DNA from: an uncultured Candidatus Saccharibacteria bacterium
Lineage (GTDB): Bacteria > Patescibacteriota > WWE3 > UBA101185 > UBA10185
Length of the DNA: 64,000 nt
NCBI GenBank assembly: GCA_964385105.1
Contig: CAYLMU010000003.1
Coordinates: 2,470-66,469 of the forward strand
Reading direction: 5' to 3'
This document shows, piece by piece, positions 50,627 through 64,000 of the stretch (the stretch's first letter is position 1; every line of letters starts with the position of its first letter). The notes beneath the pieces were generated by a model. The model had not been told where the DNA came from. It searched no databases and saw only the letters and a list, made by a program, of their open reading frames with translations. The translations under genes were made by a program, and so were the position numbers.

Positions 50627-52927
50627 TTAAACCAAAATGTTTATTTCAAGTTGGTCATTTTTTGCTACTGCACTTAGTTTTAGGGGTCTTACAGAATTTT
50701 GCAATAACACTTTTGCTACCTCATCAAGTAAATTCCTTTCCACCACGCGCCTTAATGACCTGGCACCATATTCTTTTGAATAACCTAACTTAAGCAAATG
50801 GTCTTTTGCCGATTTATTTAAACGTAAGCTTATTTGCTGTTCTTTAAGGTTTTTGTCCACTTCTTTTAGCAATAAATCCAAAACTCTCATTTGATCTTGT
50901 TTTGTTAAACGCTTAAATACAATTACCTCGTCAAATCGGTTTATAAGCTCAGGCTTAAGAATTTTCTTTAAATTTTGTTTAAGGTTTTTTGCTATTGTCT
51001 CTTCTTCTGCCGTTGCAATAGATTCTGTGAATCCGATTTCCTGATTGTGTAGTATTTCTGTACCCAAGTTACTGGTTAATATAATAACAGCACGTGAAAA
51101 ATCAAAAACATGTCCTTTTGCATCAGAAAGTTCTCCTTCTTCCATTATTTGCAATAAAATGTTTAATACATCAGGGTGTGCTTTTTCGATTTCATCAAAC
51201 AAAACCACACTGTTTGGCTGTAATTCTATTTTTTGAGTAAGTTCTCCCCCCTCGTTGTATCCGACATATCCCGGAGGCGCCCCAACCAGACGTGCAACAG
51301 TATGCTTTTCACTAAAATCACTCATATCAAGCCTAATTAAGTGATTAAACCCTACTCCGCCAAATGCATGTTGGGACAACACTTTTGCAAGTTCTGTTTT
51401 ACCCACACCTGTTGGACCTAAAAACAAAAAACTCCCAATCGGTCTTTTTTTAGGCCTTAGACCTAGCTTTGATCTTATTAAAGCGCGTGCAACAGAATCT
51501 ACGGCCTCATCCTGTCCTATGATTTCTTTTTTTATTCTCTGGGATAAATCACTTAACAACTGTGTGTCTACCTCTTCATCTTGAGATTTGGTCATATTCA
51601 TTTCTCGCAAAGTGTCGTCTATATCCTGTTTTGTTAATACAACCGGACTACTTGTTACCATTTTGTCCTCATAACTCGTAAGTTTTTTTTCGTATTCTCT
51701 AATTTTGTCCTGATGAACCGCTGCTTCTTCATAATTTCCTTTGTCTAAGCTTTTGTCCATAGCCTCAAAAAGCATCATTGTTTTATCTACCAAGTTTTTG
51801 TAACCTTCTGGAACTTTACTTTTTTTCACCAAAACACGAGCACAGGCTGCATCGAGTAAATTTATACCCTTTTGTGGAAATTTAATGTGATGTATATGTT
51901 CTAAAGATGAGTCATAAACGTAATCAATAACGCCGGGCTCCATTTTAATATTATGAAATTCCTCAAGTGCACTGGCTTTGGTGTGTAATATTTCAAGTGT
52001 CTTTTGTTCCCCCGGCTCCGGTACTTCAATTATGGTAAAGTTTTGAAAAATATGGTCATTATCTGCAGTAATGCGGTCATAAACAGACGATGAAATCGTG
52101 GCAATAAAGTTAACACCTGATGACTCAAGCGTATCGCGCAATGCCGGAAATATAGCCGGTATTCCAACTCCTGAACCCGTTGGAATAAATAAGCTTTCAA
52201 AATTTTTAATACTCAGTATTACCCTATTTAAACTCTGCAACTCTTCATGAAGCTGCATCAGAGTAAAATCAATATTACCTTTGGATGCAAGACTTGAAAT
52301 ATAATTCATTAAATCAAACTCAATTACTCTATAGCCTGCTAAATGAGGCGGTACATCAAGAGATGCAATATCCCGTACCAGCAAATTAATCAACGAATTC
52401 TTGCCTACACCCATATCACCAACAATTAATGCATTGGAATTTTCTTTTTTTAAAAACACAGAAACCAGTTGCTCAAGCTCTTTTCTTTCTACCAAAGGTT
52501 CTTTATATAATTTGTATAAATTTCTACTTAAATCAACGCCATAAGCATCTATGAGTAAATTGTCTTTTTTTGCAGGATTGAGTACTTTTAATGCTTTTGG
52601 AAACAAGTTAGTACTCAAAAGATTTTCTTTTACTTTTTCATAATCCGGGGATTTTGTTATTTTAAGCAACGACAACAATAAATGCTCCGTACCAACATAT
52701 GGATGTTCTAATTTTGATGACTGGTAATATGCTTCGGTTACCAACTGATTTACATCAATCGCTACTCTCTTATTTATCTTTGCTTTAGGAAAATTTTTTA
52801 ATAACAAACCGGCCAAGCCTGCAGATTTAGTTAATAAAGTAACTATTTCTGCAGATTTAACCACCTTTTCGTCAGATAGCTGAGTTATTACGTACTTAGC
52901 TCTTTTAGTTAATCTATGTAACGGCAT
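50627..52927 (-). CDS. clpC: ClpC/ClpA-type AAA+ chaperone (Clp protease ATP-binding subunit).
   Basis: Clp_N repeats at the N-terminus. NBD2 Walker A GPTGVGKTELAK, sensor and ClpB_D2-small region. NBD1 P-loop is degenerate (GDMGVGKNSL). Confidence 0.85.
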   Translation of the reverse strand: MPLHRLTKRAKYVITQLSDEKVVKSAEIVTLLTKSAGLAGLLLKNFPKAKINKRVAIDVNQLVTEAYYQSSKLEHPYVGTEHLLLSLLKITKSPDYEKVKENLLSTNLFPKALKVLNPAKKDNLLIDAYGVDLSRNLYKLYKEPLVERKELEQLVSVFLKKENSNALIVGDMGVGKNSLINLLVRDIASLDVPPHLAGYRVIEFDLMNYISSLASKGNIDFTLMQLHEELQSLNRVILSIKNFESLFIPTGSGVGIPAIFPALRDTLESSGVNFIATISSSVYDRITADNDHIFQNFTIIEVPEPGEQKTLEILHTKASALEEFHNIKMEPGVIDYVYDSSLEHIHHIKFPQKGINLLDAACARVLVKKSKVPEGYKNLVDKTMMLFEAMDKSLDKGNYEEAAVHQDKIREYEKKLTSYEDKMVTSSPVVLTKQDIDDTLREMNMTKSQDEEVDTQLLSDLSQRIKKEIIGQDEAVDSVARALIRSKLGLRPKKRPIGSFLFLGPTGVGKTELAKVLSQHAFGGVGFNHLIRLDMSDFSEKHTVARLVGAPPGYVGYNEGGELTQKIELQPNSVVLFDEIEKAHPDVLNILLQIMEEGELSDAKGHVFDFSRAVIILTSNLGTEILHNQEIGFTESIATAEEETIAKNLKQNLKKILKPELINRFDEVIVFKRLTKQDQMRVLDLLLKEVDKNLKEQQISLRLNKSAKDHLLKLGYSKEYGARSLRRVVERNLLDEVAKVLLQNSVRPLKLSAVAKNDQLEINILV

Positions 52928-54042
52928 TATTTTTCTTCTTCAAGTCTTCTGGTGCTTAATGCAAGCTTTTGTTTAGATCCATCTACATTCGTAACAATAG
53001 CCTCAACCTTATCCCCTATTTTGAGCGGAGTAGCAGCCTCCGACACATGAATCAAACCGTCTAACCCTTTTTCAAGATTAACAAACGCTCCAAATGGAAC
53101 GATTTTGCTTACAACACCTTCGACTTTTGTTCCTTCCGAATATCTTTCTTCTACACCTTCCCAAGGATTTTTTATAAGTTGTTTGACGCTTAAAGCCAAT
53201 TTCTTTGATTTATCATCAATACCCAAAACTTTTACCTCAATTGGAGATCCAACAGAATAATAATCAGCCGGGTTACTTACTTTTTCCCATGCAATCTCAC
53301 TAATATGAACAAGCCCTTCAACTCCGTTTAAATCAACAAACAATCCAAAAGGCATAACACCGGTTACAATACCTTCCAAAATGTCACCTTCGTTTATCTG
53401 ACTTAATTTTTCTTCACGTGCTTCTTCACTATATGTAGCTGCAGCTTCTTTTTCAGATAAAACGAGCCTATTTTTTGCTCTATCATGCTCAATTACTTTT
53501 ACTTTCAACTGTTTTCCTGCTAAAACCTGCAAACTCTCTTTTAACTCTGCTTCATTACCTGATGCAGTATTAGTTAAATCTTCAGCAAAATGCACGCGGT
53601 CTAAGTGCGACAAAGGAACAAAGCCCCTCATACCTAAACAGTCCACCAACAATCCTCCTTTTGTATATTCAAGAACTGTTACTTCAAGCACTGCGCCGGT
53701 TTCATATGCATCCTCAATATTGCTCCATTTTCTATCTTTTTCAGCCCTTTTAAGTGAAAGAACCAAATACCCCTGATCATTCTCAGACTGAATAACCATT
53801 GCCAAAACAGTATCCCCGGGCTTTAGATTTTTATAAGATTTATCTGAATCAACAAGTTCTTCACCTGTAATTATTCCTTCACTTTTTGCACCCACATCAA
53901 CCAAAACCTCATTTGACCCTGCCGATACAACAACACCTTCAACCAAATCGCCAAATTGAAACTGCTTAATATCAATGTCACTGTCTTTGAGCAGTTTAGT
54001 CATCACGGAATCTTCTTTGTGTATAGTTTTTGCTTTTGCCAT
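52927..54042 (-). CDS. rpsA: 30S ribosomal protein S1 (four S1 domains).
   Basis: Repeated S1 OB-fold motifs (G.V.G.V..I..FGAFV.L..G.DGL.H.S). Confidence 0.8.
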   Translation of the reverse strand: MAKAKTIHKEDSVMTKLLKDSDIDIKQFQFGDLVEGVVVSAGSNEVLVDVGAKSEGIITGEELVDSDKSYKNLKPGDTVLAMVIQSENDQGYLVLSLKRAEKDRKWSNIEDAYETGAVLEVTVLEYTKGGLLVDCLGMRGFVPLSHLDRVHFAEDLTNTASGNEAELKESLQVLAGKQLKVKVIEHDRAKNRLVLSEKEAAATYSEEAREEKLSQINEGDILEGIVTGVMPFGLFVDLNGVEGLVHISEIAWEKVSNPADYYSVGSPIEVKVLGIDDKSKKLALSVKQLIKNPWEGVEERYSEGTKVEGVVSKIVPFGAFVNLEKGLDGLIHVSEAATPLKIGDKVEAIVTNVDGSKQKLALSTRRLEEEK

Positions 54043-54267: not shown

Positions 54268-54612
54268 CTATGCAAAAAGCTGTGGCCAATTTATTTTAGG
54301 TATAAACTTTATACCTAGCCTCCTATACTCATTTTCCACGTCATGATTGTCGGATGTTCCAATGATAATACCAGGTGAAACGCCTTGAGCTATAAGCCTT
54401 TTAGCGCAAACTATACCGGCTTCCGGGTTATTATCAAAACGGGTATCAAGTATAATCAGGTTAAATGGCCCGTTTGTAGATAATTGTTCAAGCGCTTCTT
54501 GACAGGTGGTAACCTGCACCAGCTCACCAATTCCTGAAATCTCCGCAAAAGCACGGGCTAATGCCCTATGATCCGGAGAATCCTCAACCTGCAACACTCT
54601 AACTTTTTCCAT
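54268..54612 (-). CDS. Stand-alone response-regulator receiver (REC) domain protein.
   Basis: CheY-like fold: acidic pocket (LQVEDS), phospho-acceptor region IILDTRF, T/K positions. No output domain. Confidence 0.65.
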   Translation of the reverse strand: MEKVRVLQVEDSPDHRALARAFAEISGIGELVQVTTCQEALEQLSTNGPFNLIILDTRFDNNPEAGIVCAKRLIAQGVSPGIIIGTSDNHDVENEYRRLGIKFIPKINWPQLFA

Positions 54613-54622
54613 TTCTCATCCT

Positions 54623-54985
54623 TTATTCTTTTAACAATCTCTTAAGTGTTTGTATAAGTATCTCAACACCAGAGAAATCTAATTTATCAACCACACGTTT
54701 AGCCCCCGCAGATGTAAATACTCCTCTTGGCAAAGTGCTGGCTGTAAACATTACAATCTTAGCTTCAGGATGTTTTTTGAGTATCCTTGGAATTGCTTCT
54801 AATCCAGATAATCTACCTTCACCAAAGCTATCATCCAGTACAATTACAGCAACCCCTTCTAAAGTGCTAGCCAACAAATCTTCAACGGTTGAAAATACTT
54901 TAACTTCATACCCTGCACTCCTTAACTTACCACTCACATACATTCTAGCTGTGGTGTTATCATCAGCATAGGCAACGATTTCCAT
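54623..54985 (-). CDS. Stand-alone response-regulator receiver (REC) domain protein.
   Basis: ADDNTTARMYV...VIVLDDSFGEG...KIVMFTAS... CheY-like. No output domain and no kinase nearby. Confidence 0.65.
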   Translation of the reverse strand: MEIVAYADDNTTARMYVSGKLRSAGYEVKVFSTVEDLLASTLEGVAVIVLDDSFGEGRLSGLEAIPRILKKHPEAKIVMFTASTLPRGVFTSAGAKRVVDKLDFSGVEILIQTLKRLLKE

Positions 54986-55425: not shown

Positions 55426-55932
55426 CAGCATACGAAGCTGTACTCTAAAAACTGAACAAAACTTTGATTAAGCCCAATTACTAAAAGTCTTAATTTAAAG
55501 ATGCGCACACATTAGTACTGCTTAGCTAAACACATTACTGTGCGTACACTTGCAGCCTATCAACCTGGTAATCTCCCAGGAGGTACGTCCGATAAATCGG
55601 AAGAATTCTAATCTTGGGATGGGCTTCGTGCTTAGATGCTTTCAGCACTTATCCCGACCGAACGTAGCTACCCAGCGATGCCACTGGCGTGACAACTGGA
55701 ACACTAGAGGTTCGTCCGCTCCGGTCCTCTCGTACTAGGAACAGCCTCCCTCAGAATTCATACGCTCGTTGTGGAAAGAGACCGAACTGTCTTACGACGT
55801 TCTGAACCCATCTAACGCGCCTCTTTAATGGGCGAACAGCCCAACCCTTGGAACCTGCTTCAGCTCCAGGATGAGACGAGACGACATCGAGGTGCCAAAC
55901 ACCGCCGCCGCTATGAACGCTCGAGCGGTATT

Positions 55933-55965
<33 letters not shown>

Positions 55966-56456
55966 AAGTTCCGAGCTTACCATAAAGCATTCGGAAGATC
56001 ATTAAGACCTACTTTCGTAACTGCGCGACTTGTGTGTCTTGCAGTAAAGCTCCCATATACCTTTACGCTTACAGCGCCATTTCCATCGGCGCTAAGGGAA
56101 CCTTTGTGCTCCTGCGTTACTTTTTAGCAGGAAACCGCCCCAGTTAAACTGCCCATCAAGCATTGTCCTCGTACCCGATAAGGGCACACAGTAAGACTCA
56201 TAATATTAGAAGAGAGGTGTTACATTGGCGACTAGCTCACCTAAGCGAGCTAATCTCCCTCCTACGCTATACAACTAATATCACTTGTCAATGCCAGACT
56301 ACAGTAAAGCTCCACGGGGTCTATTTGTCCAACAACGAGTAACCGGCATCTTCACCGGTAGTTCAATTTCACCGAGTCCGTGATTAAGAGAGTGCTCAAG
56401 TCGTTACGCCTTTCGTGCGGGCCGGAACTTACCCGGCAAGGGATTACGCTTGTTAA

Positions 56457-57184
56457 TTCTTCATCTATATTAAATAGACTTTGAGTAACCTTCCCAGTGT
56501 TACTCCTGCATGTCGCCATGCAGACGCCACTATATCTTCATGCACTAGCATGTTTGGCGTATAGTGTGTGAGGATTCAAGAAACTTTGGAGTAACCTTAC
56601 GATTCATAAGACTACATAATAATGCAATCTCATGTATACCGTTAAAATTAAGGTGTTTCCTTTGTTCAATCAATTCCATAATTTCGCAGAATAATTGAAA
56701 ATCATTTTGCTTACTTGTTCTTAATTTGTGTGCCCTAAAAAAAGGTACTATTTTTGAATTAAGATCTGTAATGGATCTCACACAATAGCGATAAAGGTCT
56801 TCGTTGTGATTATCAAACCTTCTGTTTAAATATACTTTTCCACATCCAAAAAAGTTTTGGAAAATGTAAAGAACATTTTTACTCTTTGCTGATTGTGTGA
56901 CTATGAACTCTGGAAATACCTGCCAACCGGTTTTGCTCGTGGAGTTTTTTAGTATGCTTACTGTAAAAGCACCCTCCCCATCTACAAACCCAATTATCCA
57001 ACCAATGGTTTCTTGTCTTTCCTGCTGATTGTCCGCACTTGCTGCATTTTCACTCAACACATCCGAATATTATCCGAACATGTTAAGTAGCACAAGATTC
57101 TTTATTCTACTTTTAATAGACACTACCTTTTTTAGGTAGACGGAGTTTCCAGCATATAGCCAAATTTTACTATGGCGGCGCGAT
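56457..57184 (-). mobile_element. Group I-type intron in 23S rRNA (insertion near the E. coli 1917-1923 region, helix 69-71 area) carrying a homing-endonuclease ORF. Boundaries approximate.
   Basis: 23S exon homology (…ACGGCAGCAGTAACTATAACTGTTCTA) stops at ~57190 and resumes at ~56456 (CGTAATCCCTTGCCGGGTAAGTTCC…). An intervening ~730 nt contains a LAGLIDADG ORF. Confidence 0.6.
56545..57060 (-). CDS. LAGLIDADG-family homing endonuclease (single-motif type) encoded within the 23S intron.
   Basis: IGWIIGFVDGEGAF matches the LAGLIDADG motif. 171 aa, typical for homodimeric I-CreI-like enzymes. Confidence 0.8.
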   Translation of the reverse strand: MLSENAASADNQQERQETIGWIIGFVDGEGAFTVSILKNSTSKTGWQVFPEFIVTQSAKSKNVLYIFQNFFGCGKVYLNRRFDNHNEDLYRYCVRSITDLNSKIVPFFRAHKLRTSKQNDFQLFCEIMELIEQRKHLNFNGIHEIALLCSLMNRKVTPKFLESSHTIRQTC

Positions 57185-58033
57185 TCACCATAGAACAGTT
57201 ATAGTTACTGCTGCCGTTCACCCGAGCTTCGACCAAAAGCTCATTCACAATTGCACAAGTGCAAAAGTAAGATCACCTCCAGCTTTAACTTACGGGCACT
57301 GGGCAGGCGTCGGCCCCTATACATCCCCTTACGGGTTTAGCAGAGACCTGTGTTTTTGATAAACAGTCGCTTGAACCATTTTTGTGCCCCCTACGTATCT
57401 CTACGCAGGGCATCCTTTTCCCTAAGTTACGGATGTAATTTGCCTAGTTCCTCGATCACGGTTCTCTCGTTCGCCTTGGTATTCTCTACCTGTCTACCTG
57501 TGTCGGATTGCGGTACGGATATCATAGGATCTCCCTAGAAGATTTTCTTGGAAGCTTAACGCAGCTAAATCAGCGGTATTACCCGCTTTTCCACCGGCTC
57601 GTATAAACGCCTGTGCGGATTTGCCTACACAGACTGACTTGCCTTCTGGACTGGAATCCTTAACCAGCCTAGCCTATCAAACTCCGTCCCTCCATTGGTA
57701 ATAATGATCAAATGATAGTGCAGGAATATTAACCTGCTGTCCATCGGTTACGCCCTTCGGCCTCACCTTAGGACCGACTTACCCTCCGTTGACTGACATA
57801 GCGGAGGAAACCTTAGACTTCCGGCGGGGTGGGTTTTCACCACCCTCTCGTTACTCATGCCCACATTCTCACTTGATGCCGCTCCAGCATACCTCACGAT
57901 ACACCTTCAGTGCAGACATCAATGCTCCCCTACCATCCATTAAAATCTAAAAGAAATTAATGAATCCACAGCTTCGGTTCTTTGCTTTAGCCCCGTTAAA
58001 TCATCGGCGCGAAACCGTTGAACTAGTGAGCTG

Positions 58034-58076
<43 letters not shown>

Positions 58077-58645
58077 AGCTGTCTAAACAGTTTCACTTCC
58101 TTACCCACTAAGCAAAGATTAGGGACCTTATCTGATGGTCCGGGTTGTTTCCCTCTCGTACCAGGAACTTGCTCCCTAGTACTGACTCCTAAGTTGAAGA
58201 TTTGCGCATTCGGAGTTTGGTAAGAATGGGTACGCTTGCGCGCCCCAATTCTTTTCAGTATCTCTACCTCACAAATCCATAATAACTTAGGGCTATACCT
58301 AAATATATTTCGGGGAGAGCCAGCTATCGCCGAGTTCGATAAGCGTTTCACCTCTTACCACAAGTCATCCCAGCATTTTTCCGCATACACGGGTTCGGTC
58401 CTCCGCCTGTCTTTCGACAGGTTTCAACCTGCTCATGGTAAGCTCACTCGGCTTCGGGTCTAATAACATATACTAAAGCGCCCTTTTAAGACTCGCTTTC
58501 GCTGCGTCTACACAACTGAGTTGCTTAAACTTGCATATGTTATTAACTCGCGGGCTCATTCTTCAATAGGCACAACATCACACCACAAGGGTGCTCTGTC
58601 AGCTTGTTTGCATACGGTTTCAGGTTCTATTTCACTCCCCTAACA

Positions 58646-58677
<32 letters not shown>

Positions 58678-58942
58678 TGTTCACTATCGGTGTCCTCATG
58701 TATTTAGCCTTAGCTGATGGTCCAGCTGTATTCACACAGGGTTTCACGTGCCCCATGCTACTCTGGATAAACCCAAGAAGGCATTTTTGTTTCGAATACA
58801 GGGCTATTACCTGCTATGGCGCAGCTTTCCAGCTGGCTTCTTCTACAAAAATACTTTTTTACTTCTTTGTCATTCAAGATGACGTAGGGCTTTCCTAACC
58901 CCCTAATCTTAAAACTTTGTTTCAAAATATTTGTGCAATTAA

Positions 58943-58987
58943 GAAAAACAATCTGCAGGCCTAAAAGGCCGAAGCCGTTTTTCGTAT
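58943..58987. repeat. 45-nt structured repeat, copy B, inside the 23S rRNA domain I (candidate intervening sequence/expansion).
   Basis: gaaaaacaatctgcaggcctaaaaggccgaagccgtttttcgtat. Lies after the GAGTAGCGGCGAGCGAAAAGG...AGCCCAAACC block, where E. coli has no corresponding sequence. Confidence 0.7.
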
Positions 58988-59512
58988 TGCAAAATTTTTA
59001 AGACTTGGGTTTGGGCTCATTCCTTTTCGCTCGCCGCTACTCAGGAAATACCTAATGGTATCTTTTCCTCCAGTTACTAAGTTGTTTCAGTTCACTGGGT
59101 ACCCATCTATGCACCTATGTTCGCCCGAAGGCAAATTTCAGCACATGATCACCTCATATTACTATGGATGGAGTTTCCTCATTCGGAGATTCCCGGTTAA
59201 TAGCGCTTCTTGTCAGCTCACCGAGACTTAACGCAGACTTGCACGTCCTTCATCGGCACAAGGACCCAAGGCATCCACCGTATGCATTAGTATCTTTAAT
59301 ATCAAGACGAATTGAACTTAAATCTAGTTTTGTTCAGTTTTCAAAGTACATGCTACGTTTTACATTTTCAAAAACTGTCCTCGGGCATAGCCCTGCGGAT
59401 TGTTTTTTCAAATTGTAAAACTTCGCCACAATTAAGTGACTTGTTGGCAATTCGTCGCTTTCGCTCCTATTGCACATCAATTCACTAAACTCACTTCATT
59501 CGTTAAGTGACT

Positions 59513-59589
59513 TGGTGGACCCGGCGGGATTCGAACCCGCGACCCCTGCAGTGCAAATGCAGTGCTCTAGCCAACTGAGCTACAGGCCC
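59513..59589 (-). tRNA. tRNA-Ala(UGC) with encoded CCA, immediately upstream of the 23S rRNA.
   Basis: Reverse complement GGGCCTGTAGCTCAGTTGGCTAGAGCACTGCATTTGCACTGCAGGGGTCGCGGGTTCGAATCCCGCCGGGTCCACCA. G3:U70 present. Anticodon loop UUUGCAC gives UGC. Confidence 0.8.
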
Positions 59590-59872
59590 AGAATAATAAG
59601 TAAAATCGTATTCCAATATTACTTAGTTAGGGCCTCCCAGTCAACCGGCCAAAAGGTCCATAATATATTATTTTTCAGTTTGTTCAGAGCTTCTGTCGCA
59701 ATGACATTAAATCCTTTCGGATGGAAGTTGTATAGTAAGTGTGTGTAGATTAGCATTGTGAATATTTTGTGTCAAGGGTTATAGCTAAATTGTATATGAC
59801 CGGGTTTAAGTTATAATCTCAATAAAAAAAGCGGCATCAAGAAAAGTAAATTCTTATACCGCTTTTGTTTGC

Positions 59873-60382
59873 TTAACTTAGGTAGCTTAGTAATAAAACT
59901 ATCAATACAAGTGTCAAAGATAGCTTAATTACAATTGGTTTAATCTCCATGTTTTCTAACTTTCCCCTCAGTGTTATTGTCACTTCACCGGTTAAAGGTA
60001 ATACTTCAATAACTGCTTCCTTGACACCTGTGAGTATTCCTTTAACACCATTGCTATCAATCCTCACAGGAATTTGTATCACATCTTGCCTATTTTGCTC
60101 CAAACCATAAATGTACTTTGGATACTCTCCCGAATCATCCCTGTACACTCCGTTATTTTGAGCTATGGCATAAGCTCTTTTCCATAACTCAGTCTTTGAA
60201 ATCTTCCGGAACTTAGGTAATGGAAACTTTACTGCAAACGGTGCCTCGGTGAACGCAATGTGAGTATCGTATGCTGAAGTCACTCTATTTTTTTCAAAAT
60301 GCTTGAGTAGCCATTGTGCAGCCACTTCTACCTCGTCAGCAGTCGGTTCATCCCACAAAGAGATTTTCTTTTTAGATGACAT
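59873..60382 (-). CDS. Hypothetical C-terminally tail-anchored membrane protein (169 aa), paralog of the adjacent 273-aa gene.
   Basis: WDEPTADEVEVAAQWLLKHF...LWKRAY...YIYGLE...IPVRIDSNGVKGILTG...KLE aligns with the downstream paralog. C-terminal TM IVIKLSLTLVLIVLLLSYL. Confidence 0.55.
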   Translation of the reverse strand: MSSKKKISLWDEPTADEVEVAAQWLLKHFEKNRVTSAYDTHIAFTEAPFAVKFPLPKFRKISKTELWKRAYAIAQNNGVYRDDSGEYPKYIYGLEQNRQDVIQIPVRIDSNGVKGILTGVKEAVIEVLPLTGEVTITLRGKLENMEIKPIVIKLSLTLVLIVLLLSYLS

Positions 60383-60515
60383 CTGTTGTCTTACTCCTTT
60401 TATTGTTTATTAGAATAAAACACATTTTAAATAGTATTTCAACCTATAGAAAAAATGAATAAAAAAGCGACTGTAACCATGCAATAATTTGCATTGGTCA
60501 AGCCGCTTTTGTACT

Positions 60516-61337
60516 TTATGCGAGCAAATATAGTAAAACCACTATAATCCCAAGAATTCCAAGAGGAATTGAAATTTTTACGGTTTTACTAACTGCATCT
60601 TCAAGCTTCGCCCTAATCCTGATGAAGACCGTTGCCTCTCCAGTTAAGCGGTCAATTTCCACATCCATTTTGGGCTCACCTGTAAGCCTCAATGTTCCCT
60701 TAATTCCTTGTTCGTCCACGTTGAGAGGAATATTTAACACGTGAAAAGCACCAGCAGTTGATGCGATTGAATCATCATTAACTTTCGATCCCTCTAACAC
60801 ATAAGAATCATATTTACCGATCTTTCTGATAACAACGCCTTGCTTTTCAGCTCCTTGAATTACCTTTTTCCACAAAGGTCTGTATACAATCTTCGCAGAT
60901 CGAGGGAGTGGCCTTGCAATTTCTGATTTTAAAAGCATTCTATGAGTAGTTTGAACCCGTACATTACCCTTATTACTCACCACATGTGCAACAAGCCAAT
61001 CAACAACCTTTCTAACCTGCTCAGGCGTGGGATTATCCCAGTCTGCTATCATAGCATGTCTTCTTTGTACCTCTGCATGTGCCTTAGAAGTCCAAAGACC
61101 CTTTAGTTTAGGATCATAAATAAAACCAAACTCCGGAGCATGTTTTTTGAGAGCATCTCGAAACTTATCAAGCGAGGGGGGCACTGAGGTGGATCTATCG
61201 TGCTTTACGGCCCATGAACGTGCATTTTCTAAAGGGAAAGGCTTTTCGTTTTGAAGATTATATCTTTCCACATTTAATACTGCTTGTCTATAAAAGTTTC
61301 TCACAAAATCGTCCAGTGCAGCATTACTCATTCCCAT
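60516..61337 (-). CDS. Hypothetical C-terminally tail-anchored membrane protein (273 aa), paralog of 59873-60382 with an extra N-terminal ~100 aa.
   Basis: WDNPTPEQVRKVVDWLVAHV...LWKKVI...YVLE...IPLNVDEQGIKGTLRLTG...KLE. C-terminal TM ISIPLGILGIIVVLLYLLA. Confidence 0.55.
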   Translation of the reverse strand: MGMSNAALDDFVRNFYRQAVLNVERYNLQNEKPFPLENARSWAVKHDRSTSVPPSLDKFRDALKKHAPEFGFIYDPKLKGLWTSKAHAEVQRRHAMIADWDNPTPEQVRKVVDWLVAHVVSNKGNVRVQTTHRMLLKSEIARPLPRSAKIVYRPLWKKVIQGAEKQGVVIRKIGKYDSYVLEGSKVNDDSIASTAGAFHVLNIPLNVDEQGIKGTLRLTGEPKMDVEIDRLTGEATVFIRIRAKLEDAVSKTVKISIPLGILGIIVVLLYLLA

Positions 61338-61519
61338 CTCTTACCTTCCTTTTTTATTCGATTATCAATTTAAAAACATTTTACAAAAAAATAAAATAAA
61401 AACAAGCTATAGGGCATAAAAGTATATAAATTTCATTTGTACATCAATCCATACAGCCACATACAAAAAAAGAGCTGATAACCATGCACATCAAATGCAA
61501 AAGTCATCAGCTCAATTTG

Positions 61520-61789
61520 CTAATCTCCCGCCAAGGGAAGTTCTGCCGGCTCATCACAGGGTTCATCACAAGGCACCTTTTCGGATGAAATTACTACAAT
61601 TCTGTACTCAATACCATTAAGCTCAATTTGCTTTTCTTCAACTAACTGTCGTAAAGCTTCGTCGAGCTCCTTGTCGCTCATGTCGTTTGCAAGGGTCAAT
61701 GGCAATAAATCGACTCGCGTAGTTGGACTCCTGCCTAGGCGGGCAACTAAAATATGTTTAAACTCTTCGAAATCGGGAAACATGCTCAA
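61520..61789 (-). CDS. Small acidic hypothetical protein (89 aa) with a C-terminal CDEPCDEP motif.
   Basis: ORF with its own hairpin terminator (61455-61500). No recognisable motif. Confidence 0.4.
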   Translation of the reverse strand: MSMFPDFEEFKHILVARLGRSPTTRVDLLPLTLANDMSDKELDEALRQLVEEKQIELNGIEYRIVVISSEKVPCDEPCDEPAELPLAGD

Positions 61790-61934
61790 CTCCTTTACTA
61801 GATTAGGGGCTTATAAAGTTGTAATTATTTTATCGGCATGTACTCAAATTATCAAATTGATTCTAAACATTGCATGTTGATAATACAGTCTCCAAAGGTA
61901 CAAATTTTCTTAAAGAGTTGTAACTACAATAAAT

Positions 61935-62861
61935 CTAAAAAAGTGACATCTGGTTATCATTAACCTCAACACTCTTCCCCTCATCCGGCCCGTTATAATC
62001 AGTAAAACCAAGCCTCTTAATCAAACTTTTAAACCTGTATTTTTCAAGCACTTTTTTTACTTCACCCGCGTTATAGTCGCTGTAATAACATTCATTTAAA
62101 TTCACATCCATTGGAACATCCCTTATTATAGTTGCAAGCTTTTTGCTCATTATTGCTTCTTCATAATTATTCAAAAGTTTTTCTTTTAGCTTTACCGGAT
62201 GGATTTGGTCGATGTTATTATAAATTCCTTCAACGCTTCCATACACCTCAATTAAATTTTTTGCTGTTTTATCTCCAATTCCGTAAACTCCGGGTATGTT
62301 ATCACTTGGATCACCTCTCAATGCTTTGTATTCAACCAACAATTCCGGATTAAACCCAAGTCTTGCTTCAGCTTCCCTCATACCCACCAAATCAGCAGAG
62401 CCTTTAGTTGAAGGTATCATTATCAAAACTTTATCATTTATCAACTGCCACAAGTCTTTGTCATTTGACGCAATTATTACTTCAATATCTTCATCTTTGG
62501 TTTTTTCAACCATTGTTCCAATAATGTCATCTGCCTCATACCCGTCAACAGTTAAAGATTTAACACCAAAAGCATCTATAACTTCAAAAATTTTTGGAAT
62601 TTGTTGCGAAAGGTCATCTTCCATTGGCCTGCGATGTGCTTTGTAACCGGTAAAGTCCTCAACTCTAAAAGTAGGTTTTTTACTATCTAAAGCAGCCACG
62701 GCATAATCAGGCTTTAAAGTTTGAAAAATGCTAATTAGCATTGATGTTGTGCCGTATATTGCATTTGTAGGGTTACCGTCGCTATCAGTTAAAGTTTTGG
62801 GTAAAGCAAAGTAAGCTCGGTGTAAAAAGTTAAATGTGTCTATAAGCAGAAGTTTTTTCAT
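61935..62861 (-). CDS. 5'-3' exonuclease (FEN-like; Pol I N-terminal-domain homolog).
   Basis: LLLIDTFNFLHRAYFA...AALDSKKPTFR...GYKAHR...GYEADDIIGT...GIGDKTA (H3TH) are typical 53EXO motifs. Confidence 0.8.
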   Translation of the reverse strand: MKKLLLIDTFNFLHRAYFALPKTLTDSDGNPTNAIYGTTSMLISIFQTLKPDYAVAALDSKKPTFRVEDFTGYKAHRRPMEDDLSQQIPKIFEVIDAFGVKSLTVDGYEADDIIGTMVEKTKDEDIEVIIASNDKDLWQLINDKVLIMIPSTKGSADLVGMREAEARLGFNPELLVEYKALRGDPSDNIPGVYGIGDKTAKNLIEVYGSVEGIYNNIDQIHPVKLKEKLLNNYEEAIMSKKLATIIRDVPMDVNLNECYYSDYNAGEVKKVLEKYRFKSLIKRLGFTDYNGPDEGKSVEVNDNQMSLF

Positions 62862-62887
62862 TAGTAATGTAGCATAATTAATGTAGC

Positions 62888-64000
62888 TTACGACTCCATG
62901 AGTTCGGCAAATTCACCTCCGTCGATTGTTTCTTTATCAAGTAAAACCATTGCAACCTGGTCAAGCTTATCTTTATTATCCTGCAAAAGCTTTCTTGCCA
63001 AATCATACTGTTTTTCAATAATATCTTCTACTTCGGCATCAATTTTTGCTGCTACTTCCTGGCTCACAACGTGTGCCTCGCCCATTTGTTTGGCAAGCCA
63101 ATGTCTTTCTTCATCACCACCCAAGTTAATCGGCCCAAGTGAACTCATTCCCCACTCAGTAACCATTTTTCTTGCAATGTTGGTTGCTTTTTCAAAATCA
63201 TTTGCAGCACCGGTAGTTATTTCATTAAATACAACTTCTTCAGCAACTCTTCCGCCCATTATCATTGCAATCATAGCTAATAATCTTGTTTTACTTTCAT
63301 TGTACCTGTCTCTTTCAGGAGGCAAACTTGTATGACCTAAAGAGCCGCCTCTTGGAACAATAGTCACTCTACCCACAGGGTCTAAACTTCCAACTAAAGC
63401 TCCAACAATTGCGTGTCCAGCTTCGTGGTATGCAGCAAGTTTTCTGTCATTTTCATCTTGAAGGCGCTTTCTTTCAGGCCCCATGGTTACTTTAAGAGCT
63501 GCATTATCAATGTCTCTCATGGTAATTGTTTTTCTGTCCTCTCTTGCAGCATAAATGGCAGACTCGTTTAAAACGTTTTCAATGTCGGCTCCGCTAAACC
63601 CAACTGTCTTTTTTGCAACTTTTTCTAAATCAAAGTCTTCAGCAAACGGTTTTCCCTTCATGTGAATTTGAATTATCTCTTTTCTGCCCTCAAGATCAGG
63701 CATCGGAATAGTTACTTTTCTATCAAACCTTCCCGCCCTAACCAAAGCCGGATCAAGCATATCAGGCCTGTTTGTGGCAGCAATCACAATTACATTAGTT
63801 CTTTCGTCAAAACCATCCATTTCAATTAAAATCTGGTTTAAGGTTTGTTCTCTTTCATCATGACCTCCACCGATTCCCATACCTCTTTGTCTACCAATAG
63901 CATCAATTTCGTCTATAAAAATAAGTGCGGGTTGTGCTGTTTTTGCCATTTTAAATAAATCCCTCACTCTGCTTGAACCCACACCAACAAGCATCTCCAT
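62888..64000 (-). CDS. ftsH: ATP-dependent zinc metalloprotease FtsH (C-terminal ~370 aa; N-terminus beyond window end).
   Basis: AAA+ second region of homology (…ATNRPDMLDPALVRAGRFDR…), protease HEAGHA zinc motif, and C-terminal helical domain. The ORF is open to the window edge. Confidence 0.9.
   Translation of the reverse strand: MEMLVGVGSSRVRDLFKMAKTAQPALIFIDEIDAIGRQRGMGIGGGHDEREQTLNQILIEMDGFDERTNVIVIAATNRPDMLDPALVRAGRFDRKVTIPMPDLEGRKEIIQIHMKGKPFAEDFDLEKVAKKTVGFSGADIENVLNESAIYAAREDRKTITMRDIDNAALKVTMGPERKRLQDENDRKLAAYHEAGHAIVGALVGSLDPVGRVTIVPRGGSLGHTSLPPERDRYNESKTRLLAMIAMIMGGRVAEEVVFNEITTGAANDFEKATNIARKMVTEWGMSSLGPINLGGDEERHWLAKQMGEAHVVSQEVAAKIDAEVEDIIEKQYDLARKLLQDNKDKLDQVAMVLLDKETIDGGEFAELMES

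What the first reader, a model, noticed from the sequence alone, without database searches (positions are those of the whole stretch)
56457..57184. Group I intron with LAGLIDADG homing endonuclease in 23S rRNA at the helix 69-71 region
23S exon homology breaks at ~57190 and resumes at ~56456, around E. coli positions 1917-1923. The intervening ~730 nt encodes a 171-aa single-motif LAGLIDADG protein (IGWIIGFVDGEGAF). The exon sequence at the junction (TCTATGGTG / CGTAATCCCTTG) deviates from the normally invariant CCUAAGGUAG/CGAAAUUCC, so exact splice sites need confirmation. rRNA introns with homing endonucleases are characteristic of CPR-like lineages. The endonuclease could have a novel target specificity.
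Basis: partly seen in the sequence, partly recalled or inferred. Interest (0 to 1): 0.5.

Follow-up and report, generated by a model that had tools for sequence, protein, structure and literature searches.

The report
23S group I intron lacking guanosine pocket
The 23S rRNA gene carries a mobile group I intron with its own LAGLIDADG homing endonuclease, an ordinary find in these tiny bacteria, but the intron's guanosine-binding base pair is flipped and it ends in A instead of the near-universal G, so it may use a different nucleoside to splice.

Summary
A 736-nt insertion (window 57186..56451, minus strand) splits the 23S rRNA gene between E. coli U1931 and A1932, not at 1917-1923. It has a group I core. 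P1, P3, P7 and P9 are supported by covariation in 67 related introns. P4 is invariant, and the Q element and most of the S element match the classical consensus. A 171-aa single-motif LAGLIDADG endonuclease ORF (57060..56545) fills loop L6 and overlaps the core on both sides.

Relatives sit at the same site in more than 580 species genomes. The nearest are in candidate division WWE3.

The unexpected part is the catalytic pocket. The P7 pair homologous to Tetrahymena G264-C311, the guanosine-binding site, is flipped to C-G. The intron's last base is A, not G. At least six further distinct relatives share both features. Across about 140 related introns, the last base tracks this pair: G-C with G (sometimes A), C-G with A, A-U and U-A with U.

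I infer a re-specified nucleoside pocket. This has not been tested experimentally. A non-self-splicing intron remains possible.

The parts
56451..57186 (-). Whole intron, 736 nt, inserted between E. coli U1931 and A1932 of 23S rRNA
   Evidence: LSU model gap. Borders GGU|...|AGCG are shared by about 60 homologous loci. Length and ends confirmed.
57187..57193 (-). P1, exon strand CUAUGGU; the 5' splice site follows U57187
   Evidence: Pairs with the guide sequence GCCAUAG, with a U.G wobble at the splice site. 53 of 53 related introns keep all 7 pairs. The exon change A1928U is compensated in the guide sequence.
57170..57176 (-). Internal guide sequence GCCAUAG (P1, intron strand)
57178..57181 (-). 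Candidate P10 strand GCGC, pairing with exon 2 GCGU (56449..56446)
   Evidence: By eye. L004 has 5 pairs (AGCGU/GCGCU). Family-wide support is weak: 64% canonical against 60% after shuffling.
57159..57164 (-). P3 5' strand UUUGGC; its partner GCCAAA is at 56553..56558
   Evidence: 99% canonical pairing with many double changes in 67 introns; 85% after shuffling
57150..57154 (-). P4 5' strand UGCUG; its partner CAGCA is at 57023..57027 within the Q element AAUCAGCAGG
   Evidence: Invariant in 66 of 67 introns, with one compensated change. Position, corrected by hand.
57032..57144 (-). P5 (UCCGU at 57140-57144 with GCGGA at 57032-57036) enclosing a P5abc-like extension: two small hairpins, the P5b hairpin 57054..57086 and the A-rich bulge GUGAAAAUG 57045..57053
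   Evidence: One covarying P5 pair, U-A 60 against C-G 7. MFE fold of the extension.
56545..57060 (-). Homing endonuclease ORF, 171 aa, single LAGLIDADG motif. The GUG start lies in the P5b 3' strand. The body lies in loop L6. The stop codon UAG lies in the P8 loop.
   Evidence: The conserved termini ADNQQER and FLESSxTIRQ are encoded by P5'-P4'-P6 and P6'-J6/7-P7-P3'.
56579..57022 (-). Candidate P6 (GGAAA 57018..57022 with UUUCU 56579..56583) closing the loop that holds the ORF
   Evidence: 80% canonical, no better than shuffling. This is the weakest helix.
56561..56568 (-). P7 5' strand CACACUAU: C56568 (flanking pair), A56567 (bulge), C56566 (position of Tetrahymena G264)
   Evidence: The family consensus is GAGACUAU. 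This strand and J6/7 contain no G at all.
56527..56533 (-). P7 3' strand AUAGUGG; G56528 pairs with C56566 (position of Tetrahymena C311)
   Evidence: The family consensus is AUAGUCC. The P7 register is fixed by compensatory variants ACUGU/ACAGU, GCCAU/AUGGU and ACUUU/AAAGU.
56539..56552 (-). P8 hairpin CAUGC-UAGU-GCAUG
   Evidence: Direct reading
56463..56523 (-). P9 (7 bp with GCGA loop, 56506..56523), P9.1 (56483..56505) and P9.2 (56463..56479)
   Evidence: P9 is 99.6% canonical with many double changes. P9.1 and P9.2 come from the MFE fold.
56451..56451 (-). Last intron base (omega), A instead of G; the tail is GAAGAAUUAACA
   Evidence: The independent Logan contig L001 is identical.
56441..56450 (-). 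Start of exon 2, AGCGUAAUCC (E. coli 1932-1941)

Best explanation
This is a mobile group I intron at site L1931 of the 23S rRNA gene of a WWE3-like CPR bacterium. It has no P2 and carries a P5abc-type extension. It encodes a single-motif LAGLIDADG homing endonuclease. By analogy with characterised single-motif enzymes, that protein would act as a homodimer, cut intron-less 23S genes around ..CTGTTCTATGGT|AGCGTAATCCC.., and so copy the intron into them.

The RNA is expected to leave the precursor by group I chemistry. P1 presents U57187 paired with G as the 5' splice site, and the exons are joined in front of AGCG.

Shown here:
- the insertion and its borders;
- the conserved core helices;
- the endonuclease family;
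- the wide distribution of relatives at the same site.

Also shown: the nucleoside pocket is not canonical. The P7 pair that binds guanosine in studied introns is C-G instead of G-C, and the last intron base is A instead of G.

Inferred: the pocket has been re-specified, most simply for adenosine, rather than destroyed. Across relatives the last base follows the identity of this pair, and the pair stays Watson-Crick in every variant.
For: - Borders and site: LSU model gap and identical GGU|..|AGCG borders in about 60 loci.
- Group I core: Rfam Intron_gpI partial hit at E 2e-8. The Q element AAUCAGCAGG matches the classical consensus exactly; the S element AAGAUAUAGUGG matches it (AAGAUAUAGUCC) except for the two flipped bases. 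Canonical pairing in 67 introns is P1 100%, P3 99%, P7 95.5% and P9 99.6%, each above every shuffle and with many double changes.
- Endonuclease: Pfam LAGLIDADG_1 at E 6.5e-24. PDB relatives are the I-SmaMI and I-OnuI family and a 170-aa single-chain enzyme, 5gkk. All family-invariant residues are present.
- Pocket: among 130 loci, all 18 with a non-G-C pocket pair have a non-G last base, against 22 of 112 with G-C. C-G goes with A in WIN, L162, L167, L169, L002, L003 and L173; L175 matches on the 3' strand only. U-A goes with U in L170 and L171. A-U goes with U in 13 loci.
- Close relatives differ only by G to U at the last base together with G-C to A-U in P7, for example L097 and L032.
- On an endonuclease tree there are 6 pocket changes and 11 changes of the last base.
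- Selection for splicing in this clade: the exon change A1928U is matched by a guide-sequence change from U to A.
- Literature: the guanosine ligand forms a base triple with this G-C pair (PMC2588497). The title of Raghavan 2007, seen in a reference list, reports a self-splicing Coxiella 23S intron that lacks the canonical terminal G.
Against: - There is no RNA evidence of splicing.
- Swapping 264:311 in the Tetrahymena ribozyme destroyed activity (PMC2860135), so the flipped pair could mean loss of self-splicing.
- About 20% of relatives with a normal G-C pair also end in A, so the last base is not strictly read by the pair.
- The variant states fall in few clades, which means few independent events.
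- P6 and P10 are not supported above shuffling, and I could not identify P9.0 in the window.
- The Rfam hit is below the gathering score, and the model gave no hit on four relatives in longer scans.
Confidence: 0.8

Rival explanations
1. The intron has lost self-splicing. In this reading the flipped pocket and missing terminal G are damage. The insertion either stays in the rRNA or is cut out by host RNases, leaving a fragmented 23S rRNA. The endonuclease keeps the element spreading regardless.
For: Flipping 264:311 kills the Tetrahymena ribozyme. [quoted passage not shown] A 2025 paper expects CPR rRNA insertions to be removed by self-splicing or by endoribonucleases.
Against: The pocket pair is Watson-Crick in every variant (C-G, U-A, A-U), and the last base changes with it. 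P1, P3, P7 and P9 remain under pairing constraint in the same clade. The guide sequence has followed an exon substitution. Decay would not be expected to produce these patterns.
Confidence: 0.17
2. The intron is an ordinary guanosine-dependent one whose 3' splice site lies elsewhere. The G of AG|CG (56449) or a G just after P9 would then be the true last base.
For: A G lies two bases downstream of the assigned site. The Rfam model's last position aligns to the G that ends P9.
Against: The first option would delete A1932-G1933 from the mature rRNA, and the second would add about 55 nt at a conserved junction. All relatives with a terminal G place it directly before AGCG. In short actinobacterial members, the three bases before the last G pair with the three bases after P7 and covary, which fixes the register. 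The candidate P10 also fits AGCG. The P7 5' strand has no G that could bind guanosine.
Confidence: 0.03

Closest known systems
LAGLIDADG-bearing insertions, about 45% of them classed as group I introns, in CPR 23S rRNA genes (Tsurumaki et al. 2024, PMC11270868; site listed there as 1931, 23IS7)
   Same: Same host group, same gene region, and a LAGLIDADG_1 single-domain ORF. The intron-like flanks are recognised only weakly by the Rfam model.
   Different: The enzyme characterised in that paper, I-ShaI, is 42% identical to I-CeuI. The window protein matches I-CeuI only at E 3e-8, so it belongs to a different endonuclease lineage. That paper does not examine splice sites or the guanosine pocket.
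IB4 group I introns at LSU site 1931 in archaea (Nawrocki et al. 2018, PMC6125680), and the L1931 introns of Simkania, Thermotoga and chloroplasts (site recalled from memory; papers appear in the reference list)
   Same: Same insertion site after U1931.
   Different: I could not test subgroup membership here. The canonical terminal G and G-C pocket pair expected of those introns are absent from the window intron.
A Coxiella burnetii 23S intron that lacks the canonical terminal G (Raghavan et al. 2007; only the title was seen; that it is Cbu.L1917 and ends in A is from memory)
   Same: A bacterial 23S rRNA group I intron without a terminal G, described in the title as self-splicing.
   Different: Different site, 1917 by the intron's name. 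I do not know its pocket pair. Here the guanosine-binding pair itself is flipped.
Engineered Tetrahymena ribozyme G264A:C311U (Michel 1989; Been and Perrotta 1991; cited in PMC9971707)
   Same: A change of the P7 pocket pair goes with a change of the nucleoside used. From my memory of Been and Perrotta, it also goes with the terminal base needed for exon ligation.
   Different: That is a laboratory mutant with an A-U pair. The window has a natural C-G pair. The natural A-U relatives end in U, not A.
LAGLIDADG endonucleases I-SmaMI and I-OnuI (double-motif monomers) and PDB 5gkk (170-aa 'putative homing endonuclease')
   Same: Clear sequence homology: E 1e-26 to 3e-43 for whole chains, with each half of the double-motif enzymes aligning to the window protein.
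   Different: The window protein has a single motif, so it would need to dimerise. Its DNA target and activity are untested.

Membership tests
Group I intron | P1 helix in which the last exon base is U paired with G of an internal guide sequence | tested here: met
   CUAUGGU pairs with GCCAUAG. U.G is present in 53 of 53 relatives, and an exon change is compensated.
Group I intron | Conserved core P3-P4-P6 / P7-P3'-P8 with the P3/P7 pseudoknot and the Q, R and S sequence elements | tested here: met
   P3, P7 and P9 covary. P4 is invariant. Q is an exact match and S matches 10 of 12 bases. P6 is weak.
Group I intron | Score at or above the Rfam Intron_gpI gathering threshold | tested here: not met
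   39.9 bits against 50, E 2e-8, in a 1.2-kb scan. The model forces the 516-nt ORF and the P4-P6 domain into gaps. No hit appeared on four relatives in longer scans.
Group I intron | G-C pair in P7 that binds guanosine (Tetrahymena G264-C311), next to a bulged base | tested here: not met
   The bulged A and the flanking pair are present, but the pocket pair is C56566-G56528. The 5' strand has no G.
Group I intron | Terminal guanosine at the 3' splice site | tested here: not met
   The last base is A56451. A precedent for a missing terminal G exists in Coxiella (title only).
Group I intron | Nucleoside-initiated two-step transesterification | not testable with these tools
   This needs in vitro splicing or RNA data.
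Subgroup IB4 (typical of LSU site 1931) | Match to a subgroup-specific structure model | not tested
   No subgroup models are available here. Only the site agrees with the IB4 introns listed in PMC6125680.
LAGLIDADG homing endonuclease, single-motif class | LAGLIDADG_1 domain above the Pfam cut-off, one motif, about 170 aa | tested here: met
   85.2 bits against 23.1; residues 22-128; 171 aa.
LAGLIDADG homing endonuclease, single-motif class | Acidic catalytic residue at the end of the motif | tested here: met
   In GFVDGEG, residues D27 and E29 are invariant in 30 homologues. Their role is assigned by analogy with I-CreI, from memory.
LAGLIDADG homing endonuclease, single-motif class | Homodimer that cleaves the intron-less site | not testable with these tools
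   This was shown for I-ShaI from another CPR bacterium, not for this protein.

The most novel reading that the evidence does not exclude
The window intron and its WWE3 relatives are natural group I ribozymes whose nucleoside pocket has switched from guanosine to adenosine (C-G pair, terminal A). Sister lineages would have switched to uridine (A-U or U-A pair, terminal U). They would start splicing with a nucleoside other than guanosine. A 2022 review states that such a specificity change is not observed in nature (PMC9971707).
Probability: 0.4. Interest if true: 0.85.

Novelty: new variant of a known kind. Interest (0 to 1): 0.6.

Why it matters
As an rRNA intron with a homing endonuclease in a CPR genome, this adds one more member to a well-described class.

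The pocket is what matters. The guanosine-binding G-C pair and the terminal G are treated as the fixed points of group I catalysis. Laboratory mutants showed that the pocket can be retargeted, but natural examples are said not to exist. Here a family of introns in essential rRNA genes shows four pocket pairs, each with its own preferred terminal base.

If these introns splice, they show that the ribozyme's substrate specificity has evolved in nature. They would also supply ready-made adenosine- or uridine-dependent ribozymes for mechanistic work and for engineering. If they do not splice, they raise the question of how a ribosome copes with a 736-nt insertion between helices 69 and 71.

Tried and rejected
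- Rfam at gathering threshold on eight relatives failed internally.
- An E-value scan of four relatives found only rRNA, with no Intron_gpI hit. The Rfam model cannot serve as a membership test for ORF-bearing L1931 introns.
- The Coxiella paper by Raghavan et al. 2007 is not in the library. Searches for Cbu.L1917 found nothing. The terminal-A detail therefore rests on the title and my memory.
- Searches for natural variants of the guanosine site found none described.
- A search for I-CpaI, which I recall as the chloroplast enzyme at site 1931, gave only passing mentions. I make no comparison with it.
- P6 and P10 did not exceed shuffled controls.
- I looked for P9.0 in the window and found none. 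It is clear only in short actinobacterial relatives.
- I considered shifted splice sites: one base left or right, the G of AG|CG, and a G after P9. I rejected them because they change conserved rRNA bases or break the candidate P10 register.
- I could not work out P1 for the relatives that begin with a hairpin. Their 5' splice site is taken from the exon alignment only.

Full report
**1. The observation**

The bacterial LSU rRNA model matches 55492..59300 on the minus strand (2429 bits). A 5S gene lies downstream and tRNA-Ala(UGC) lies upstream. The gene is 3809 nt against a 2925-position model. In a local scan the alignment is continuous except for one 738-nt block after ..GUAACUAUAACUGUUCU.

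The sequence reads ..CUGUUCUAUGGU / GAAUCGCGCCGCCAUAG.. at the upstream border and ..GAAGAAUUAACA / AGCGUAAUCCCUUGCCGGGUAAGUUCCGG.. at the downstream border. The ORF 56545..57060 (171 aa) matches Pfam LAGLIDADG_1 at E 6.5e-24.

I counted E. coli numbers from the helix 69 pseudouridines (U1911, U1915, U1917 in GUAACUAUAACGGUCCUAAGGUAGCG). By that count the break lies between U1931 and A1932, not at 1917-1923. The true junction, UCUAUGGU|AGCGUAAUCCC, differs from the consensus at A1928U, A1936U and U1940C. There are also two compensated pairs in the helix 69 stem.

**2. Relatives fix the borders**

The protein has 2647 homologues at E <= 1e-3, and the identical protein is in NCBI and Logan. Scans found relatives in 581 species genomes and 578 metagenome stretches.

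The nearest relatives, at 65-70% identity, are in candidate division WWE3 and unclassified Patescibacteria. More distant ones are in Saccharibacteria, Parcubacteria, Acidobacteria, Actinomycetota, Planctomycetota and MAGs labelled Gammaproteobacteria.

In every locus where both exons could be recognised, the gene sits in a 610-980-nt insertion exactly between ..GGU and AGCG... The element is therefore a widespread site-specific insertion at L1931. This site is known for IB4 introns in archaea (PMC6125680). It is also listed as a LAGLIDADG_1 hot spot in CPR 23S genes (PMC11270868).

**3. It is a group I intron**

Rfam Intron_gpI gives a partial hit over 56506..56631 (39.9 bits, E 2e-8, below the gathering score of 50). 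The hit contains AUGAAGAUAUAGU and the P9 hairpin.

By reading and comparison I placed the following helices:
- P1: exon CUAUGGU with guide GCCAUAG, and U.G at the splice site.
- P3: UUUGGC/GCCAAA.
- P4: UGCUG/CAGCA, inside an exact Q element AAUCAGCAGG.
- P5, with a P5abc-like extension and an A-rich bulge.
- A weak P6, GGAAA/UUUCU.
- P7: CACACUAU/AUAGUGG.
- P8, P9 with a GCGA loop, P9.1 and P9.2.

I built a fixed-register alignment of 67 distinct relatives and scored canonical pairing:

| Helix | Canonical pairing | Shuffled mean |
|---|---|---|
| P1 | 100% | 93% |
| P3 | 99% | 85% |
| P7 | 95.5% | 87.5% |
| P9 | 99.6% | 82% |

Each of these values exceeds every shuffle, and each helix shows many double changes. 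P4 is invariant. P6 and P10 are no better than shuffles.

In the WWE3-like hosts the exon change A1928U is matched by a guide-sequence change from U to A. This shows that P1 pairing, and hence splicing, has been under selection in this very clade.

The ORF is tightly interleaved with the ribozyme. Its GUG start lies in the P5b 3' strand. Its conserved N-terminus ADNQQER is encoded by P5'-P4'-P6. Its conserved C-terminus FLESSxTIRQ is encoded by P6'-J6/7-P7-P3'. Its stop codon is in the P8 loop.

**4. The endonuclease**

The closest solved structures are the double-motif I-SmaMI and I-OnuI family, where each half aligns with the query, and a 170-aa single-chain 'putative homing endonuclease', 5gkk (E 1.4e-26). 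I-CeuI matches only at E 3e-8. The motif GFVDGEG and all residues invariant in 30 homologues are intact.

A single-motif CPR enzyme from a nearby 23S site, I-ShaI, has been shown to dimerise and cut its target. That enzyme is I-CeuI-like, which is a different lineage. Homing by the window protein is therefore inferred, not shown.

**5. The unexpected part**

The family consensus for P7 is 5' G-A-GACUAU / 3' AUAGUC-C. This is the Tetrahymena arrangement: C262-G312, bulged A263 and G264-C311, the last being the pair that binds guanosine through a base triple (PMC2588497). Nearly all relatives end ..G|AGCG.

The window has 5' C-A-CACUAU / 3' AUAGUG-G. Both G-C pairs are flipped, and no G is left in that strand or in J6/7. 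The intron ends ..UUAACA|AGCG.

Among 130 loci the pocket pair and terminal base combine as follows:

| Pocket pair | Terminal base | Loci |
|---|---|---|
| G-C | G | 90 |
| G-C | A | 21 |
| G-C | C | 1 |
| A-U | U | 13 |
| C-G | A | 4 |
| U-A | C | 1 (an aberrant 977-nt intron) |

All 13 loci with A-U end in U, and no other locus has A-U.

Further members of the window's clade gave these states:
- C-G with A: L162, L167, L169, L173 and, judged from the 3' strand only, L175.
- U-A with U: L170 and L171.
- G-C with A: L004, L082, L164.
- G-C with G: L166, L168, L172.

On a neighbour-joining tree of the endonucleases, parsimony gives 6 changes of the pair and 11 of the terminal base. No tip combines a non-G-C pair with a terminal G. 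Close relatives differ by just G to U at the last base together with G-C to A-U in P7, for example L097 and L032.

**6. Interpretation**

The pair remains Watson-Crick in all four states, and the terminal base follows it. This is what a direct contact between the two predicts. It is not what decay predicts.

A simple hydrogen-bond argument fits the pattern. This is my inference. Written as acceptors (A) and donors (D), the major groove reads as follows:
- G-C reads A, A, D and suits the D, D, A edge of guanine.
- C-G reads D, A, A and suits adenine N1 and N6-H.
- A-U and U-A both read A, D, A and suit uracil N3-H and O4.

Laboratory work supports the principle. Pocket mutants of the Tetrahymena ribozyme accept adenosine. 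A 2022 review says this change 'is not observed in nature' (PMC9971707). Swapping 264:311 destroyed activity in a guanosine-dependent assay (PMC2860135).

I therefore think the window intron most likely still splices, with a pocket no longer specific for guanosine. I give about 0.4 to a real adenosine specificity.

The main rival, at about 0.17, is an intron that no longer self-splices and is either tolerated or removed by nucleases. An unspliced group I intron in the 23S rRNA of Simkania (Chlamydiales) is a precedent; only its title was seen. A canonical intron with a misplaced 3' splice site is unlikely, at about 0.03.

**7. Caveats**

- The evidence is comparative only.
- The variant states sit in a few clades.
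- One in five canonical-pocket relatives also ends in A.
- P6, P10 and P9.0 are weak or unresolved in the window.
- The Rfam score is below threshold.
- Only a fraction of the detectable loci could be fetched.

**8. Verdict**

The flipped guanosine-binding pair and the terminal A make it a new variant of that kind. It is worth an in vitro splicing test.

Noticed in passing
L006, L018, L025, L029, L032, L085, L089, L090, L101, L105, L106, L113, L115 (3' parts of their introns): Thirteen L1931 introns from Saccharibacteria, Parcubacteria-type and unclassified contigs have an A-U pair at the guanosine-binding position (GAAACC../..GAGUUC). All thirteen end in U before AGCG. Their nearest relatives with G-C end in G.
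   Followed up: partly
L170 and L171 (introns); L028: Two close relatives of the window intron have a U-A pocket pair (CUUACUAU/AUAGUAG) and end in U. L028 has U-A with a terminal C, but it is an aberrant 977-nt intron.
   Followed up: partly
L162 1520-1934; L171 1532-1934; L175 1-452: Some relatives carry a second LAGLIDADG gene a few hundred bases from the first, in the same 23S region. This suggests tandem introns at neighbouring sites. The window has only one.
   Followed up: no
window about 58908-58999, about 58858-58879 and about 57239-57270 (minus strand): The 23S gene has other, shorter insertions relative to the bacterial model: about 92 nt and 22 nt in domain I and about 30 nt just upstream of helix 69. 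None contains an ORF.
   Followed up: no
window 59513-64000: Only tRNA-Ala(UGC) precedes the 23S gene. There is no tRNA-Ile or 16S gene within the 4.4 kb upstream, where protein-like ORFs lie instead. The 16S gene appears to be unlinked or distant.
   Followed up: no
window 59873-60382 and 60516-61337 (minus strand): Two adjacent ORFs of 169 and 273 aa are paralogues (32% identity, E 3e-21). Each ends in a hydrophobic tail, and neither matches any Pfam family.
   Followed up: partly
window 54268-54612 and 54623-54985 (minus strand): Two adjacent stand-alone response-regulator receiver proteins with no output domain lie directly downstream of the 5S gene. A four-domain S1 protein follows at 52927-54042.
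   Followed up: partly
L164, L165, L168 (exon 2): In these relatives the 23S sequence after the intron reads ..CCCUUGUCGCAUAAUUAUCGACCCGCACG instead of ..CCUUGCCGGGUAAGUUCCGGCCCGCACG. This is an altered helix 71 loop.
   Followed up: no
window 56451-56462 compared with 56527-56540: In the window's clade the intron tail (GAAGAAUUAACA; GAAGAUUACA in relatives) resembles the J8/7-P7 segment GAAGAUAUAGU. The motif UUAACA also occurs in the P5b 5' strand (57081-57086). I do not know whether this means anything.
   Followed up: no
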